Source of the DNA: an uncultured Gemmatimonadales bacterium
GTDB taxonomy: Bacteria; Gemmatimonadota; Gemmatimonadetes; Longimicrobiales; Gaopeijiaceae
Direction of reading: 5' to 3'
Assembly: GCA_963809895.1 (NCBI GenBank)
Contig: CAWELD010000003.1
Location: 864,001 to 928,000 of the forward strand
DNA length: 64,000 bases
The notes under the pieces were generated by a model. The model searched no databases. It saw only the letters and a list, made by a program, of their open reading frames with translations, and was not told where the DNA came from. Position numbers and translations under genes: made by a program. Shown in pieces: positions 17,038 through 44,708 of the stretch (within the stretch, counting starts at the first letter, position 1; each line of letters begins with the position of its first letter).

Positions 17038-17124
17038 ATGACCGACCTCTCCCGCACACCCCCGCTCCGATTTAGCCGCCGGCCATCCGCCGGTGGAGCG
17101 GGGTGCGTGCGCGGGTCGCCCTAG
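17038..17124 (+). CDS. Putative pheA leader peptide (28 aa, MTDLSRTPPLRFSRRPSAGGAGCVRGSP)
   Basis: ATG 6 nt after TTGACG-17-TACCCG; one TTT Phe codon; stops just before a strong terminator. Confidence 0.45.
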   Translation: MTDLSRTPPLRFSRRPSAGGAGCVRGSP

Positions 17125-17153
17125 GCGGCGCCACCCTGGGTACAGAGGTCCTG

Positions 17154-17190
17154 AGCGGGCCCTTCCTCCACCGGGAAGGGCCCGCTTTTT
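17154..17190 (+). terminator. Intrinsic terminator (attenuator-like) in the pheA leader
   Basis: Perfect 13-bp stem AGCGGGCCCTTCC/GGAAGGGCCCGCT plus T-tract, about 30 nt before the pheA ATG. Confidence 0.8.
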
Positions 17191-17219
17191 CGTATTCCCC
17201 CTCCGAGGCTGGCAGTCCC

Positions 17220-18365
17220 ATGACCGATCCCACATCCCCCTTGTGCGTCGCCTATCAGGGCGAGCCCGGTGCCTTCAGCGAAGAGGCCCTGCGGGCCTGG
17301 TTCGGTCCCGCGGCGACGCCCGTGGGCCATCGCGACTTCACCGGCCTGGTATGCGCCGTGGCCAGCGGAGAAGTCCCGTTCGGGGTGTTGCCCATCGAGA
17401 ACACCCTGGCCGGCGGCGTCGGCGCGGCTTGTGACGCCTTTCTCCGGGCCGACGTCGACGTGGTGGGCGAGATCGTGCACCCGATCCGGCACACCCTGTG
17501 GGCGCGGGCGGGCGCGTCGTTGTCCAATGTGCGCCGGGTGCTGTCGCATCCGGTGGCCCTGGCCCAGTGCCGCCGCTTCCTGGAGCGGCACCCGTGGCTG
17601 GAGGCGGTCCCGGTAGAGGACACCGCCGGCGCGGTGCGGCAGGTGGCCGAGTCGGGGAGCGAAGGCGACGCCGCGGTAGCGTCGGGGGGCGTGGGCGCAC
17701 GCTTCGGTTTGTCGGCGCTGGCGTCGGACGTCCAGGATCGTGCCGACAATCAGACCCGCTTCTGGGTCCTGCGGGCGTGGGAGGCGGCGCCGGGACCTTC
17801 AGGCGCGCCTCGTGGGCCGTGGAAGACACTGCTCGACTTCACGACGCCCCACAGGCCGGGCGCCCTCATGCGGGTCCTGCGGGCGCTGGCCGACGGGGGC
17901 CTCAACCTCGCGTCGTTGGACTCGCGTCCCGGCGAAGAGCCGTGGACCTACCGCTTCGTGGCCGAGCTCGAAGGGCGTCTGGAAGGCGAGGACGCCGAGA
18001 CGGCACTTCGCCAGGCGCGATCCCACGCGCTCACCCTCCGCGCACGAGGGCCCTATCAGGTCCTTCACACCCAGGACGACGACGGCCCGCCACGGGCGGC
18101 GCGGGGCGGGGGACCCCTGGACCTGGAGGAGCTGAGGTCCGGCATCGACGCCATCGACCGCACCCTTCTCGGCCTGCTGGCACGACGGCGGGAACTGGCA
18201 CGCCGGGCTCAGGAGACCCGGCAACGCGAAGGCGACGTCCAGCGCGATCCCCCGCGCGAAGCCGACGTCATCCGGCGAGCCGCGACCCGCGCGCGGGAGC
18301 TGGACCTTCCGGACGAGGAGGTGCGACGCATCATGTGGAGCGTGGTGGCGCTGTGCGTGGCCTAA
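17220..18365 (+). CDS. pheA: Prephenate dehydratase-ACT with C-terminal chorismate mutase domain
   Basis: AYQGEPGAFSE, PIENT, SHPVALAQC, NQTRF, ACT (HRPGAL, LDSRP), then LEELRSGIDAIDR..RR...RDPPRE (AroQ-type CM). Confidence 0.85.
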   Translation: MTDPTSPLCVAYQGEPGAFSEEALRAWFGPAATPVGHRDFTGLVCAVASGEVPFGVLPIENTLAGGVGAACDAFLRADVDVVGEIVHPIRHTLWARAGASLSNVRRVLSHPVALAQCRRFLERHPWLEAVPVEDTAGAVRQVAESGSEGDAAVASGGVGARFGLSALASDVQDRADNQTRFWVLRAWEAAPGPSGAPRGPWKTLLDFTTPHRPGALMRVLRALADGGLNLASLDSRPGEEPWTYRFVAELEGRLEGEDAETALRQARSHALTLRARGPYQVLHTQDDDGPPRAARGGGPLDLEELRSGIDAIDRTLLGLLARRRELARRAQETRQREGDVQRDPPREADVIRRAATRARELDLPDEEVRRIMWSVVALCVA

Positions 18366-21957: not shown

Positions 21958-22035
21958 ATGCCATCGATCCTCAGCAACCGCCCGAATACCAATCGCCGCC
22001 CTCCGGGGGTCGGCGGAGACACGGGCGTGCGCTGA
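21958..22035 (+). CDS. Putative Asn-rich leader peptide (25 aa, MPSILSNRPNTNRRPPGVGGDTGVR)
   Basis: Asn codons AAC, AAT, AAT at positions 7, 10, 12 with Thr11; lies between the promoter and terminator. Confidence 0.55.
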   Translation: MPSILSNRPNTNRRPPGVGGDTGVR

Positions 22036-22063
22036 CGATCCCACGCCGAGACACTCCGACGCG

Positions 22064-22094
22064 GCCTCCCGGTATCGATCCGGGGGGCTTTTTT
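22064..22094 (+). terminator. Intrinsic terminator (attenuator-like) before thrB
   Basis: GCCTCCCGG-TATCGAT-CCGGGGGGC followed by T6. Confidence 0.8.
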
Positions 22095-22115
22095 CGTTCC
22101 CACACGACACAGACC

Positions 22116-23048
22116 ATGACGGACAGACTACACGCGGCGCGCGTATGGGCGCCCGCATCGACCTCGAACCTCGGGCCGGGCTTCGACACCCTCGGGCTGG
22201 CGCTGGACCGCGGCGTCGAAATGAGCTTCCGGCCCGGCGGTGAGGGCTTCCGCGTGCAACGCTCGGGAACGTTGCCCCCGGAGCTGGCCACGAAGGAGGA
22301 TCTGGCGGTGCAGGCCTTCCTGGCCGCCGTGGGGGCCCGCGGGATCGCGCCCGCACCTGCCGGTCTCCTGAGGGTCGAGTCCAGCATCCCCGTGGGCAGG
22401 GGCCTCGGCTCGTCGGCCGCGGCACGGGTCGCCGGCGCCATGGTGGGCCATCTGGTCCGGGGCCGGGAGCCGGTCCGCCGGACGCTCCTCGAGCAGGCCG
22501 CGCGCGCCGAGGGACATCCGGACAACGCGGCTCCGGCGGTGCTGGGGGGATTCGTAGCGTCGGTGAGCGGACCCGAAGGCCTCACGGTCGCGTCACTGCC
22601 GCTGTCGCCGGCGGTGGGTCTCGCCTTCGCGGAGCCCGGAGTGCCGGTCCATACTGAAGACGCACGGCGCGCGCTACCCAGCGAGGTGCCCCACGCCGTA
22701 GCGGCACGCACCGCGGGACGCCTCGCGGTCCTGATCCATGGGCTGGCCGTGGCCGACCCTTCGCTGATCCGGGTCGGGCTGGAGGACGAGCTCCACGTGC
22801 CCTTCCGACTTCCCCTGGTTCCTGGCGGTGAGGCCGCCATGAAGGCTGCCCGCGAGGCCGGCGCCTGGGGGGTGACGCTCTCCGGGAGCGGCTCGGGGCT
22901 GTTGGCCTTCTGCCCCCGCGAGGATGCGAGCGACCTCGCCTCCACCATGGCCGAAGCCTTCCGGAGCGTCGGCCAGGAGGGAGCGACCGGCTTTCCCCTG
23001 CGGCCGGACCCGTTGGGCGCGCGCCGCCTGCCCCTGGACCACCCCTAG
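22116..23048 (+). CDS. thrB: Homoserine kinase
   Basis: APASTSNLGPGFDTLG, IPVGRGLGSSAA (GHMP), EGHPDN, LSGSG. Confidence 0.92.
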   Translation: MTDRLHAARVWAPASTSNLGPGFDTLGLALDRGVEMSFRPGGEGFRVQRSGTLPPELATKEDLAVQAFLAAVGARGIAPAPAGLLRVESSIPVGRGLGSSAAARVAGAMVGHLVRGREPVRRTLLEQAARAEGHPDNAAPAVLGGFVASVSGPEGLTVASLPLSPAVGLAFAEPGVPVHTEDARRALPSEVPHAVAARTAGRLAVLIHGLAVADPSLIRVGLEDELHVPFRLPLVPGGEAAMKAAREAGAWGVTLSGSGSGLLAFCPREDASDLASTMAEAFRSVGQEGATGFPLRPDPLGARRLPLDHP

Positions 23049-40977: not shown

Positions 40978-42382
40978 ATGAGCCTGTCCGACGACACCCC
41001 GAAACCCGCCGGCGCCCTCTGGGGAGGCCGCTTCGAGGGCGGCATGGCGCCGTCCATGATCCCCCTGAACCTCAGCCTCGACGTGGATCGGCGCCTCTGG
41101 CGTCAGGATCTGCGTGGGAGCCGGGCCTGGGCCACGGCGCTGGGGCGCGCCGGTGTGCTGTCGGAGGATGAGGTCGACGCCCTCCACCGGGGACTGGACG
41201 CCGTGAAGGCGCGCCTGCAGGCCTGGACCTGGGGAGGCGAGCCCGACGAGGACATCCACTCGCTGGTGGAGCGGCTTCTGCACGAGGAAGCGGGACCGGT
41301 CGCCGGCAAGCTGCACACCGGTCGCTCGCGCAACGATCAGGTGGCCACCGACCTGCGGCTCTGGGTCCGGGACGAGATCGGGCCGCTGGTGGAGGCCCTG
41401 GGGCAGTTGGCCGGTGGTCTCGTGGAGCTGGCCACCTCGGGTGTGGACCTCATCATGCCCGGGTACACGCACCTGCAGCAGGCCCAGCCCATTCGGGCGG
41501 CCCATTGGGCCCTCGCCCACGTGTGGCCCCTGCTCCGGGATCGCCGGCGCCTGAGGGCGGTGGATCGCTCCGCCGCCGAGCTTCCCCTCGGGCAGCGGCG
41601 CGGTGGCGGGGTGCCCGTTTCCGGTGGACCGGGAAGAGCTGGCGCTGGCGCTGGGGTTTCAGACCGTGAGCGCCAACAGCCTGGACGCGATCAGCGACCG
41701 GGACTTCGTGGCGGAGCTCCTCTTCGCCGGCGCGCTCCTGGGGGTGCACCTGTCGCGGCTCGCCGAGGACCTGGTCCTGTTCTCCTCGCGCGAGTTCGCC
41801 TTCGTCCGCCTGGACGACGGCTACTCCACCGGCTCGAGCCTCATGCCGCAGAAGCGCAATCCCGACGTCGCGGAGCTCAGCCGGGGCAAGAGCGGGCGGC
41901 TGACCGGCAACCTCATGGGGATGCTCACGCTGCTCAAGGGTCTGCCCACGGGCTACAATCGGGACCTGCAGGAGGACAAGTCGCTCCTCTTCGATACGGT
42001 GGACACGCTCCGCCTGGTCCTGCCGGCGCTGGCCGGCGCCGTCGCCACGGCCCGCTTTCGGCCCGAGCACATCCACGAGCGGCTGGACACGCAGCTTCTC
42101 GCCACCGACCTGGCGGACTATCTGGTGCGCCGGGGCGTGCCGTTCCGCCGGAGCCACGAAGCCGTGGGCATCCTGGTGCGCCGAGCCGAGGAGCGCGGTT
42201 GCTCGCTGGAGGACCTGGCCGACGAGGACTACCAGGCCGCGCATCCGGCCTTCGACGCCGACGTGCGCGGGGTCTTCGACTGGGACCGCTCGGTCGACTC
42301 CCGCGCGGCCCAGGGCGGGACGGCCCGGGAGGCCGTCGTGACCCAGCTGGCCACGGCCCGGGAGCAGCTCTCGGAATCGTGA
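40978..42382 (+). CDS. argH: Argininosuccinate lyase, +1 frameshift at about 41591
   Basis: LWGGRF, GKLHTGRSRNDQ, MPGYTHLQ, LPLG/SGAVAG broken by an extra G, STGSSLMPQKRNPD, YNRDLQEDK. Confidence 0.9.
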
Positions 42383-42392
42383 GCCGCAGCGG

Positions 42393-43430
42393 CTACGCCG
42401 CGGCCACTTCGACCTCGCGCATGGTGCGGCCCGCCGCGGCCGCGAAGGGCCGAAGCGCTTCCATGAAGGCGTCGAAGCCGTCCAGGGTGAGGGACTGATC
42501 ACCGTCCGAGACCGCCCGCTCCGGATCCGGGTGCACCTCCACCAGCAGCCCGTCGGCGCCCGCGGCCACCGACGCCAACGCAAGCGGCGTCACCAGCTCG
42601 CGGATCCCCCCGGCGTGGCTCGGATCGGCGAACACGGGCAGGTGCGTCTCGCGCTTGAGCACCGGAATCGCCGACACGTCCAGCGTGTTGCGCGTCGCCG
42701 TCTCGAAGGTGCGGATGCCCCGTTCGCACAGGATCACCTGCATGTTGCCCTGGCTCATGACGTACTCGGCGGCCAGAAGCAGGTCCTTGACCGTGGCGCT
42801 CATGCCCCGCTTCAGCAGGACGGGCCGGTGCAGGCGCCCCACCTCGGTGAGCAGCGCGAAGTTCTGCATGTTGCGGGCTCCGATCTGGAGCACGTCGGCG
42901 TAGCCGGCCACCAGCTCCACCTGACGGGTGTCCATGACCTCCGTGACCACCGGCAGGCCCGTCTCGCGCCGCACGTCGGCCAGGTGGCGAAGTCCTTCCT
43001 CGCCCAGCCCCCGGAAGGCGTAGGGAGAGGTGCGGGGCTTGAAGGCGCCGCCCCGGAGCCCGAGACCCCCGGCCGCCGCGACCCGGGCACCGGTCTCCCG
43101 CAGCATGTCGAGCCCCTCCACCGAGCAGGGCCCCGCCACCACCACCAGCTCGTCGCCGCCGACGTCGGTGGATCCCAGCGGGATGCGCGTGGGACCGGCG
43201 GCGAAGGGCCGTGACGCCAGCTTGTAGGGCTTGAGCACGGGGTGCACCGCCTCCACGCCCGGGATCGAGCGCAGGGGGATCTCCCGCAGGCGGGTCTCGT
43301 CGCCCACGCAGCCGATGACCGTGCGTTGCTCTCCCCGCGACAGGTGCGTGCGGAGCCCCAGCGACTCCACCCGCTCGCGAATGTGGTCCAGCTCCTCGTC
43401 GGTGACGCCGGCTCGGGTCACGATGATCAT
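42393..43430 (-). CDS. aroF: DAHP synthase type I-beta with N-terminal regulatory domain
   Basis: [44 protein letters not shown]. Confidence 0.93.
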
Positions 43431-43490
43431 GGTTCCTCTCTCCTGGTGTCGTGGCGGCGGGCGTCGCCGGCCGTATGGGGTTCGGACACG

Positions 43491-43529
43491 AAAAAACCGG
43501 GCCCCCGGGGGATCGTCCCGGGGGCCCGG
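43491..43529 (-). terminator. Attenuator terminator in the aroF leader
   Basis: Perfect 13-bp stem CCGGGCCCCCGGG/CCCGGGGGCCCGG followed by T6 on the minus strand. Confidence 0.85.
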
Positions 43530-43553
43530 CTCGGATGCCGTCTTGCGGCGATC

Positions 43554-43649
43554 TCAGAGCACGCGCGGACTCCCGGCGCCCGTGGGGTAGCCGTAATACC
43601 AGAAGCCGAAATGCCGGCGCCGGGTGAACGTGCTCGCGTGCGGTGTCAT
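43554..43649 (-). CDS. aroF leader peptide (31 aa, MTPHASTFTRRRHFGFWYYGYPTGAGSPRVL)
   Basis: Seven aromatic codons (3 Phe, 1 Trp, 3 Tyr), six of them in FGFWYYGY; between promoter and terminator. Confidence 0.8.
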   Translation of the reverse strand: MTPHASTFTRRRHFGFWYYGYPTGAGSPRVL

Positions 43650-43656
43650 GGCTTCA

Positions 43657-43685
43657 AGGTTCGGAGCCCCGTGTCGACGTGTCAA
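43657..43685 (-). promoter_or_regulatory. Promoter of the aroF leader
   Basis: TTGACA (43685-43680)-17-GAACCT; leader ATG 7 nt downstream. Confidence 0.6.
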
Positions 43686-43802
43686 TGGTCGGGGGCGGTC
43701 TGGACCCCGAGGGGGGAGCTTCGATACCTTTTCGCCGCCGTTCGCGCCCTCCCCGCGGGCACACACGTTCCCTCTTATCCACCCCGGTCGGAGGACCCCC
43801 TG

Positions 43803-44708
43803 ATGGAAGCCGCGACCCGCCCCTCACTCGACGAGCTGGGCCTCTCCCTGGGCAAGAAGACCCGACTGCATCGGCTCCTCTACGAGCACGGCCTCAAGAA
43901 TGGCACGCTGCTCCTGCTCCCCATCGATCAGGGGCTGGAGCACGGGCCCATCGACTTCTTCCCGAACCCGCCGTCGGCAGACCCCGAGTTCCAGTGGCGT
44001 CTCGCCGTGGAAGGGGGCTACAACGGCGTGGCCTGCCACTACGGTCTGGCCCGCAAGTACATGGACCGCTACGCCGGCAAGGTGCCCCTCGTCCTCAAGC
44101 TCAACGGAAAGACCAACATTCCGTCCGACGACGAGGCCTTGTCCACGCTCACCGGCAGCGTGGAAGACGCGGTCGCCATGGGCGCGGATGCGGTGGGCTA
44201 CACGCTCTACGTGGGCTCCCCCCGGCAGGACGAGGACTTCCTCCAGCTGCAGGCCGTGCGCGAGGACTGTGACCGCTACGGGATGCCCCTGATCGTGTGG
44301 TCCTACCCCCGCGGCGCGGCCATCGACGGCAAGGGCGGCCGGGACAGCCTCTACGCCGTGGACTACGCCGCCCGGGTGGCCCTGGAGCTCGGTGCGGACG
44401 TGGTGAAGCTCAACATGCCCAAGCACAGCGACAACGACGCCGCACAGCCGAAGAAGTACGCCGAGATCGACTTCGACTACGGCGAGGGCGCACGCCGGGT
44501 CGTGGCCTCGGCCGGACGCTGCCTGGTCCTCTTCAGCGGCGGGAGCAAACTGGGTGACGACGACCTGCTGGAGAAGGCGCGCGTCGGCATGCAGGGCGGC
44601 GCCACGGGCCTGATCTTCGGCCGCAACATGTGGCAGCGGCCCTTCGACGAGGCCCTCGCCATCACGCAGCGGGTCAAGGCCGAGGTCCTCAGCAACTTCG
44701 GGTCCTGA
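43803..44708 (+). CDS. fbaB: Class I (DhnA-type) fructose-bisphosphate aldolase
   Basis: LPIDQGLEHGP, LKLNGKT, AVGYTLYVGS, WSYPRG, LGADVVK, FSGG, IFGRN. Confidence 0.85.
   Translation: MEAATRPSLDELGLSLGKKTRLHRLLYEHGLKNGTLLLLPIDQGLEHGPIDFFPNPPSADPEFQWRLAVEGGYNGVACHYGLARKYMDRYAGKVPLVLKLNGKTNIPSDDEALSTLTGSVEDAVAMGADAVGYTLYVGSPRQDEDFLQLQAVREDCDRYGMPLIVWSYPRGAAIDGKGGRDSLYAVDYAARVALELGADVVKLNMPKHSDNDAAQPKKYAEIDFDYGEGARRVVASAGRCLVLFSGGSKLGDDDLLEKARVGMQGGATGLIFGRNMWQRPFDEALAITQRVKAEVLSNFGS

What the first reader, a model, noticed from the sequence alone, without database searches (positions are those of the whole stretch)
43431..43685. Leader peptide FGFWYYGY could sense all three aromatic amino acids upstream of DAHP synthase
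Seen: a 31-aa ORF with Phe, Trp and Tyr codons clustered. On the mRNA, CCCGGCGCC (43624-43616) pairs with GGCGCCGGG (43580-43572) and GAGCACG with CGTGCTC; alternatively CCGGGAGTCCG (43576-43566) pairs at 10 of 11 positions with the terminator 5' arm. A 13-bp terminator with U6 follows. Known: this is classic 1:2/2:3/3:4 attenuation geometry. Inference: multivalent Phe/Tyr/Trp control of shikimate pathway entry, which E. coli achieves with three isozymes and repressors.
Basis: partly seen in the sequence, partly recalled or inferred. Interest (0 to 1): 0.85.

Follow-up and report, generated by a model that had tools for sequence, protein, structure and literature searches.

The report
Three-amino-acid attenuator before DAHP synthase
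A 31-codon mini-gene packed with phenylalanine, tyrosine and tryptophan codons, followed by a transcription stop hairpin with a conserved competing fold, sits before the first gene of aromatic amino-acid synthesis in this Gemmatimonadota bacterium, and likely lets a stalled ribosome switch that gene on when these amino acids run short.

Summary
Confirmed. A 31-codon ORF (F14-G-F-W-Y-Y-G-Y21), a 13-bp terminator with U6 and a competing helix precede a type I-beta DAHP synthase in a Longimicrobiales-type Gemmatimonadota genome. The ORF is predicted leaderless. The unit was called at 62 of 108 homologous loci. In a test blind to codon content, 47 of 48 promoter-defined ORFs were aromatic-rich (own-genome background 7 of 65). 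Antiterminator and terminator both covary, and the antiterminator starts 10 nt after the last aromatic codon in 28 of 60 leaders. Leaders of the same architecture carry Tyr codons before aromatic amino acid hydroxylases, Phe before pheA and His before hisG. Best reading: ribosome-mediated transcription attenuation (about 0.88), all three amino acids counting here (about 0.6). Closest published: C. glutamicum aroR-aroF (Phe-Tyr-Phe, Phe-responsive only). No Rfam match. This scan already reported the same device in six other Gemmatimonadota genomes and in cyanobacteria and archaea.

The parts
43680..43685 (-). -35 box TTGACA, 36 nt before the leader ATG
   Evidence: Sequence. The -35-to-start spacing is 35-38 nt in 57 of 62 called leaders (the calling rule allowed 26-39).
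43657..43662 (-). predicted -10 box GAACCT (17-nt spacer, then 7 nt to the ATG), which would put the transcription start on the ATG (leaderless mRNA)
   Evidence: An xAxxxT hexamer at spacer 16-18 in 44 of 46 TTGAC-bearing leaders, 6-8 nt before ATG in 38 of 44. SD-like pairing (-4 kcal/mol or stronger) in 4 of 62 leader starts against 48 of 62 aroF starts. The consensus scanner did not call it. Start site not measured.
43554..43649 (-). leader ORF, 31 codons
   Evidence: homologous ORFs at 62 of 108 loci.
43587..43610 (-). control-codon cluster F14 G F16 W17 Y18 Y19 G Y21 (a further Phe at codon 8, 43626-43628)
   Evidence: Across 60 leaders aromatic codons fill 63-80% of positions -7 to -4 and 0-2% of positions 0 to +3 relative to the antiterminator strand.
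43616..43635 (-). region 1 (CCCGGCGCC 43624-43616 and GAGCACG 43635-43629): pairs with region 2 in the untranslated fold of this sequence
   Evidence: MFE and P(1:2) 0.91-0.98 without ribosome; not conserved as a helix.
43557..43583 (-). region 2, antiterminator strand: core 43576-43566; a second register at 43583-43575 pairs 7 of 9; 43560-43557 extends the helix
   Evidence: Antiterminator fold 43576..43512 is -31.3 kcal/mol. Covariation in 45 aligned leaders: 90.3% of cells paired, 50 double changes against 16.8 shuffled.
43534..43553 (-). small hairpin between stop codon and terminator, present in both predicted folds
   Evidence: conservation not tested.
43491..43532 (-). intrinsic terminator (regions 3:4) and U6 tract 43496-43491
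   Evidence: 98.0% of cells paired, 59 double changes against 19.7 shuffled. At least 5 T in 8 nt after the stem in 54 of 60 leaders.
43435..43444 (-). Shine-Dalgarno-like AGGAGAGAGG of the DAHP synthase gene, about 45 nt downstream of the terminator and outside it
   Evidence: Sequence.
42393..43430 (-). type I-beta DAHP synthase (aroF-like, 345 aa) with N-terminal ferredoxin-like regulatory domain; stand-alone, convergent with argH
   Evidence: PF00793 and PF18152; NF006421 468 bits over cut-off 335; full-length match to PDB 1rzm/3pg9, E 2e-108; downstream context.
43803..44708 (+). divergent class I aldolase gene, followed by rpiA and rpe (context, not part of the switch)
   Evidence: best NCBIfam score is below its cut-off, so the exact aldolase is unassigned.

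Best explanation
A short aromatic-codon ORF and a terminator with a covarying competing helix precede the DAHP synthase gene, and they likely form a ribosome-mediated transcription attenuator that is predicted to respond to shortage of charged Phe-, Tyr- or Trp-tRNA. Inferred working: transcription starts on the leader ATG and a ribosome loads without an SD. With enough charged tRNA it runs on to the stop codon, covers region 2, the 13-bp terminator folds and RNA polymerase is released at U6. If it waits at F16, W17, Y18, Y19 or Y21, region 1 is held open, region 2 lies just beyond the ribosome's leading edge and captures the terminator's 5' arm before the 3' arm is made, so polymerase reads into aroF. 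Control would be kinetic, because the full-length RNA always favours the terminator. Shown: the parts, their conservation, covariation, register and the match of codons to downstream genes. Inferred: start site, translation, termination, the response to each amino acid.
For: Conservation: 62 of 108 loci (f1 19/49, f2 10/11, f3 9/9, f4 10/12, f5 14/14, f7 0/2, f10 0/11). Blind test: 47 of 48 promoter-defined ORFs have 3 or more aromatic codons in 10; 261 aromatic codons in frame against 45 and 74 in the other frames; own-genome background 7 of 65, this leader included. The order of F, Y and W varies freely, so the class is kept and not a peptide sequence. Antiterminator: own strand pairs with own arm at 7.38 of 9 Watson-Crick pairs against 6.87 +/- 0.09 for within-family permutations, 0 of 5000; 90.3% paired, slid controls 25-53%. 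Register: 10 nt after the last aromatic codon in 28 of 60. Fold model with the ribosome as a block: antiterminator occupancy 0.83-0.89 at codons 16-21, 0 from codon 26; in 60 leaders 0.82-0.87 at positions -9 to -1, 0.42 at +2. Codon content follows the gene: Tyr runs before three PF00351 hydroxylases, Phe-rich before pheA, Leu/Ile before an aconitase-family (leuC-like) gene, His before a hisG-like gene in this genome, Trp runs before aroF-trpE. Trp is in 25 of 30 leaders before aroF without a recognised aromatic gene behind it and 2 of 28 before aroF-chorismate mutase. TrpR, TRAP and T-box not found in this 95%-complete genome.
Against: No expression evidence: the three RNA runs laid are contigs and none covers 43269-43832. 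The Trp-context link rests on 3 independent pairs (about 2 same way, 0 opposite, p 0.5), and 6 of 9 leaders before aroF-pheA also carry Trp. Trp is a single codon here and absent from 32 of 60 leaders. If pairing across the ribosome is allowed, region 1 re-captures region 2 at Y18-Y21 and antiterminator occupancy falls to 0-0.04, so the model depends on a steric assumption; at F14 occupancy is only 0.4-0.5. A looser duplex test was weaker: own 2:3 beat 95% of shuffles in 22 of 62 and 90% of cross-pairings in 16 of 62. No conserved 1:2 helix. Six of 60 have a weak U tract by the script (L010 is a mis-anchored row). Covarying cells count sequences, not events. In C. glutamicum aroR the Tyr codon gave no response (PMC11802643, passage).
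Confidence: 0.6

Rival explanations
1. Same attenuator, but in practice only Tyr and/or Phe set read-through; the single Trp codon is a tolerated passenger.
For: Tyr is in 58 of 60 leaders, Trp in 28. The tree test of the Trp-context link is not significant. aroR of C. glutamicum answers to only one of its two amino acids (PMC11802643, passage). A Thermotoga-type enzyme has a Tyr site (PMC7144000, passage).
Against: W17 lies inside the span where modelled antiterminator occupancy is highest (0.88; 0.67, the top value). Trp is in 22 of 29 leaders not followed by a recognised CM or PDT gene. Seven of 7 Acidobacteriota leaders directly before aroF have all three residues. Single-Trp leaders are reported (trpL2 of S. 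lividans, PMC8079986, passage).
Confidence: 0.28
2. The ORF is incidental; the U-rich patch is an RNA signal (protein-binding or low-structure spacer) and the hairpins switch by a protein or act as a fixed dampener.
For: Aromatic codons are U-rich, and leaders over-use TTT and TAT (60/56 and 63/112 against 80/430 and 22/241 in aroF coding sequence). Translation is not shown.
Against: Strong frame bias (261 against 45 and 74); start and stop codons kept at fixed distances; the same architecture carries C/A-rich His codons before hisG; no TRAP or T-box found.
Confidence: 0.05
3. Stalling is caused by the nascent peptide binding a free aromatic amino acid or pathway metabolite in the exit tunnel (TnaC-like; family recalled, not from a call).
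For: Arg often precedes or interleaves the aromatic residues (RYW, RFY).
Against: No fixed peptide sequence or length; residues are swapped with the downstream gene; stalling in the cluster would turn a biosynthetic gene on, the wrong sign for excess end product.
Confidence: 0.04
4. A general translation-stress or antibiotic sensor: any stall before codon 22 gives read-through and the aromatic codons add little.
For: Modelled antiterminator occupancy is already 0.65-0.85 for stalls 8-16 codons upstream of the last aromatic codon; R10-R11-R12 precedes the cluster.
Against: Codon identity tracks the product of the downstream gene in several gene contexts.
Confidence: 0.03

Closest known systems
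Corynebacterium glutamicum aroR-aroF attenuator (Mentz 2013, PMC4046766, passages; Neshat 2014, not read, seen as summarised in PMC11802643, passages)
   Same: Leader peptide with mixed aromatic codons upstream of a DAHP synthase gene; ribosome stalling raises transcription.
   Different: aroR has Phe-Tyr-Phe, no Trp, and responds to Phe only; here 6 aromatic codons in 8 including Trp, a type I-beta enzyme, another phylum. Sequence relationship not tested (aroR sequence not fetched).
uORFC-13-1 motif of Acholeplasma (Brewer 2021, PMC8632094, passages)
   Same: Predicted uORF plus intrinsic terminator upstream of aroF, found by comparative analysis.
   Different: 24 representatives, SD-led, Phe codons in a U run, no Tyr/Trp claim; different phylum.
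E. coli trpL, pheL and the multivalent ilv/thr leaders (trpL and pheL as summarised in PMC11802643; ilvG, thr recalled)
   Same: Control codons, antiterminator and terminator in the same order; more than one amino acid read by one leader.
   Different: No Rfam leader family reaches its threshold here (best His_leader 23.8 bits against 49, wrong strand); predicted leaderless; no conserved 1:2 hairpin; controls the common-pathway entry.
Leaderless actinobacterial leader peptides (S. lividans ilvL, leuL1, trpL2, PMC8079986, passages; C. diphtheriae ilvB leader, PMC5784534, passages; mycobacterial poly-Cys ORFs, 10.1101/834739, search listing only)
   Same: Leader ORF begins at the transcription start.
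   Different: Other amino acids and genes; there the start sites were measured, here predicted.

Membership tests
Ribosome-mediated (leader-peptide) transcription attenuators | Short ORF in the 5' leader of an amino-acid biosynthesis gene | tested here: met
   62 of 108 loci.
Ribosome-mediated (leader-peptide) transcription attenuators | Cluster of codons for the pathway's end products, in frame | tested here: met
   47 of 48 blind, frames 261/45/74; background 7 of 65.
Ribosome-mediated (leader-peptide) transcription attenuators | Intrinsic terminator between leader stop and structural gene | tested here: met
   U tract in 54 of 60.
Ribosome-mediated (leader-peptide) transcription attenuators | Mutually exclusive antiterminator that takes the terminator's 5' arm | tested here: met
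Ribosome-mediated (leader-peptide) transcription attenuators | Register: stall on control codons frees region 2, ribosome further on covers it | tested here: met
   Offset 10 nt in 28 of 60; profile. Depends on forbidding pairs across the ribosome.
Ribosome-mediated (leader-peptide) transcription attenuators | Conserved 1:2 pause/protector hairpin (typical, not universal) | tested here: inconclusive
   Present in this sequence; 15 of 60 leaders; local alternative 37 of 500 shuffles as high; mean fold z -1.27.
Ribosome-mediated (leader-peptide) transcription attenuators | Leader is translated; termination falls when the cognate tRNA is uncharged | not testable with these tools
   Only contigs were served and none covers the leader.
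Rfam Phe_leader / Trp_leader / His_leader | Covariance-model score over the gathering threshold | tested here: not met
   No family reaches its threshold over 43300-43900.
C. glutamicum aroR family | Phe-Tyr-Phe leader homologous to aroR before aroF | not tested
   The motif here differs (FGFWYYGY); aroR sequence not fetched, homology not examined.
T-box / TRAP attenuation | T-box RNA or TRAP protein in the genome | tested here: not met
   0 matches in G000, controls ring; genome 95% complete.
Type I-beta DAHP synthase with ferredoxin-like regulatory domain | PF18152 N-terminal domain on PF00793 barrel | tested here: met
   The H-x-S-x-G stretch at 29-33 aligns with the Thermotoga-type enzyme; its role in Tyr binding is recalled, not from a call.

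The most novel reading that the evidence does not exclude
Gemmatimonadota run amino-acid control on one uncatalogued, leaderless attenuator scaffold whose codon cassette is re-tuned to the genes behind it: Tyr before phenylalanine hydroxylase, Phe before pheA, Tyr/Phe before aroF-chorismate mutase, Trp before aroF-trpE, and all three before a stand-alone aroF. This locus would be a true three-input OR gate on shikimate entry that replaces TyrR/TrpR-type control, with a parallel three-residue design in Acidobacteriota.
Probability: 0.4. Interest if true: 0.65.

Novelty: new variant of a known kind. Interest (0 to 1): 0.45.

Why it matters
It gives a concrete, testable regulatory mechanism for a widespread, mostly uncultured phylum in which my searches found no paper on leader-peptide attenuation. 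It extends the one tested DAHP synthase attenuator (Phe only) to a candidate that reads all three end products. The natural series of leaders on one scaffold is a ready panel for asking how many control codons, and which positions, a multivalent attenuator needs. A compact three-input aromatic sensor could also serve as a biosensor part. The mechanism itself is textbook, and this scan has met the device many times.

Tried and rejected
RNA evidence: one search gave three metatranscriptome runs as contigs; pieces 98-99% alike lie on the divergent aldolase-rpiA-rpe genes but no contig covers 43269-43832, so nothing follows for or against expression. Rfam: no match at threshold. Pfam/NCBIfam on the peptide: none. 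Sigma-70 scanner: no promoter called; the promoter reading rests on conservation. Conserved 1:2 hairpin: two versions tested, neither supported. Equilibrium folding of the full leader never gives the antiterminator. Trp-versus-operon association: Fisher p 2e-9 rejected as kin-inflated; independent pairs p 0.5. Translational control of aroF: the SD lies outside the hairpins. A longer GTG-started 70-aa version of the ORF was set aside because it starts upstream of the promoter boxes. Second DAHP synthase of this genome: no leader by the same rule (L112). Rows left out: 4 duplicate loci (L060, L062, L063, L068) and L070 (no upstream DNA) before the count of 108; L121 (duplicate) among named loci; L108 and L110 (Trp-type paralogue leaders) from the 60-leader statistics; only 45 of the 60 were aligned, chosen by eye for alignability, which favours the covariation counts; L001 itself sits in the second register in that alignment. 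Five visible near-misses (L005, L018, L033, L035, L093) were not counted as leaders. Model R1 hits under about 30 bits are mostly bare terminators; 4 of the 21 hits inspected were not leaders (L239, L241, L242, L243) and 2 had no identified aromatic gene behind them (L216 unidentified; L221 before a glutamate-synthase-like ORF, named by eye).

Full report
Observation. The finding is real at its coordinates. On the minus strand: TTGACA 43685-43680; ATG 43649; 31 codons ending TGA 43556-43554; aromatic codons at 8, 14, 16, 17, 18, 19, 21; a 13-bp G-C hairpin 43529-43497 with U6 43496-43491; SD at 43444-43435; then a 345-aa type I-beta DAHP synthase with a ferredoxin-like regulatory domain. In the genome, 8 of 31,518 short ATG ORFs reach 6 aromatic residues in 10 codons, and among the 50 followed by a terminator this is the only one with 4 or more.

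Lineage and context. The closest named relatives of the enzyme (73-78% identity) are Longimicrobiales and 'Gemmatimonadaceae' MAGs, so the host is a Gemmatimonadota, probably Longimicrobiales (inference). The gene stands alone, convergent with argH and divergent from an aldolase-rpiA-rpe run. A second DAHP synthase (51% identity) lies elsewhere, 42 nt behind an MBL-fold gene, with no leader. TrpR, TRAP and T-box were not found in this 95%-complete genome; TyrR was not searched. The trpE-like gene has no ORF-plus-terminator unit in the genome-wide scans.

Conservation. From 61 relatives and 201 genomes of the phylum I examined 108 loci with enough upstream DNA, after dropping 4 duplicates and 1 without upstream sequence. 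A fixed rule (3 or more aromatic codons in 10, hairpin of -14 kcal/mol or stronger 10-50 nt after the stop, a -35-like word 26-39 nt before the start) called 62: f1 19/49, f2 10/11, f3 9/9, f4 10/12, f5 14/14, f7 0/2, f10 0/11. Because that rule uses codon content, I repeated it blind: TTGAC, an ATG 34-39 nt later and a 15-45-codon ORF occur at 48 loci, 47 of which are aromatic-rich, with 261 aromatic codons in frame against 45 and 74 out of frame; the same rule genome-wide gives 7 of 65. Several f1 genomes without the leader keep TTGAC 55-108 nt before aroF, as if the leader had been deleted (direction not tested).

Leaderless start. A -10-like xAxxxT follows at spacer 16-18 in 44 of 46 TTGAC leaders and lies 6-8 nt before the ATG in 38 of them. 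SD pairing is found at 4 of 62 leader starts and 48 of 62 aroF starts. The leader is therefore predicted to start at +1. This was not measured.

RNA switch. In 60 leaders a 9-nt strand inside the ORF pairs with the terminator's 5' arm: 7.38 Watson-Crick pairs against 6.57 (all permutations) and 6.87 (within family), 0 of 5000 each. On a MAFFT alignment of 45 of the 60, chosen for alignability, the antiterminator has 90.3% of cells paired and 50 double changes (shuffled 16.8; slid 25-53% paired) and the terminator 98.0% and 59; the same columns flip G-C/C-G and G-C/A-U in all three strands. These counts are not independent events. A looser duplex test was less sharp (22 of 62 beat 95% of shuffles). 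The strand begins exactly 10 nt after the last aromatic codon in 28 of 60, this locus included, about the reach of a ribosome past its A site (recalled figure). Aromatic codons peak at positions -7 to -4 and vanish from 0 on. With the ribosome modelled as an unpaired block and no pairing across it, the nascent 5' arm is captured with probability 0.83-0.89 at codons 16-21 and 0 from codon 26. With pairing across the ribosome allowed, region 1 recaptures region 2 at Y18-Y21. At full length the terminator always wins (-37.3 against -31.3), so control must be kinetic.

What is sensed. Order and mix of F, Y, W vary; Tyr is in 58 of 60, Phe 41, Trp 28, all three 19. A covariance model from the alignment finds the same scaffold before other genes: Tyr runs before three biopterin-dependent hydroxylases, Phe-rich or Phe/Tyr leaders before five prephenate dehydratases, Leu/Ile before a leuC-like gene; four more Phe-rich leaders sit before pheA homologues among 19 relatives' loci. 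This genome has leaders of the same architecture before hisG-like (His run), pheA (one Phe) and a homoserine-kinase-like gene; R1 matches the last at E 1.7e-4 but did not list the other two. Two distant paralogues heading aroF-trpE operons have Trp-run leaders. Trp is present in 25 of 30 leaders where no CM, PDT or trpE follows, 2 of 28 before aroF-chorismate mutase and 6 of 9 before aroF-pheA. That pattern suits a stand-alone gene serving all three branches, but the tree gives only 3 independent contrasts (p 0.5). All 8 Acidobacteriota loci among the 80 carry an aromatic leader, 7 directly before aroF with all three residues and 1 before pheA-aroF; their terminator differs and R1 matched only that one.

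Expression. Not shown: no contig of three RNA runs covers the leader.

Mechanism and odds. Ribosome-mediated transcription attenuation about 0.88 in all; all three amino acids effective 0.6, only Tyr and/or Phe 0.28; RNA-only, nascent-peptide and general-stress readings share the rest.

Comparison with print. C. glutamicum aroR-aroF is a Phe-Tyr-Phe leader responsive to Phe, not Tyr (PMC11802643 and PMC4046766, passages; Neshat 2014 not read). Acholeplasma uORFC-13-1 is a predicted Phe uORF before aroF (PMC8632094, passages). Putative attenuators before aroF or aroA-tyrA are listed for Shewanella, Vibrio and Thermus without codon detail in the passages seen (PMC2659441, PMC1173090). Leaderless leader peptides are reported in Actinobacteria (PMC8079986, PMC5784534, passages). 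PMC4833913 (passages) had nothing on this gene. Eight full-text searches returned no paper on a Phe+Tyr+Trp leader or on attenuation in Gemmatimonadota or Acidobacteria; the library lacks most subscription journals, and no supplements were opened. No Rfam family matches.

Earlier notes of this scan. 440 findings hold the words of my first look-up and six describe this device in other Gemmatimonadota; these are unchecked notes and not independent support. They gave me the pointer to aroR.

Verdict. A real, well-supported attenuator of an uncatalogued RNA family: a new variant of a known kind. Interest 0.45. The open, testable point is whether the one Trp codon makes it a three-input switch.

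Noticed in passing
window 17038-17200 (+): Leaderless-type ORF MTDLSRTPPLRFSRRPSAGGAGCVRGSP with TTGAC 35 nt upstream and a terminator, before a PDT-ACT-chorismate mutase gene (17220-18365); only one Phe codon, while relatives' pheA leaders are Phe-rich.
   Followed up: partly
window 21958-22100 (+): Same architecture before a GHMP kinase (homoserine-kinase-like, 22116-23048): MPSILSNRPNTNRRPPGVGGDTGVR, with Asn-Thr-Asn where control codons would lie; matches model R1 at E 1.7e-4; not seen at 16 of 16 relatives' loci. Which amino acid it reads is unexplained.
   Followed up: partly
G000:C10, 403197 (-): His-rich leader MNGTRHFRHSHHHHGAPTGTVESGVRA with promoter and terminator before a hisG-like gene (named by eye).
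   Followed up: partly
L209, L213, L234: Tyr-run leaders on the same scaffold before PF00351 aromatic amino acid hydroxylases, a candidate Tyr-sensing attenuator of phenylalanine hydroxylase.
   Followed up: partly
L167, L172, L178, L180, L181, L182, L190, L183: Acidobacteriota aroF leaders with Phe, Tyr and Trp and a CCCACTC terminator; in several the complementary GAGTGG follows the stop codon, a different geometry.
   Followed up: partly
L108, L110, L192: aroF-trpE operons headed by Trp-run leaders, in two Gemmatimonadota paralogues and in Ferrimonas balearica.
   Followed up: partly
L164 2592-2740: Anaerolineae leader FAFYF with terminator before a type I chorismate mutase upstream of aroF.
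   Followed up: no
window 40978-42382 (+): argH is split over two frames (PF00206 positions 2-198 and 206-312), break near 41590; frameshift or assembly error.
   Followed up: no
L094 (G094) and G105 loci L218, L220, L236, L237, L238: Two f5 genomes each carry separate leaders before a DAHP synthase copy and before a PDT-CM gene, and G105 also before a leuC-like gene; L218, L220 and L236 are loci of these genomes. The id L094 itself is another genome (G099); the handles G094 and G105 are what is meant.
   Followed up: no
leaders: TTT and TAT codons, and CGA for Arg, are far commoner in the leaders than in the aroF coding sequences of the same loci; selection for slow decoding or for low structure is untested.
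   Followed up: partly
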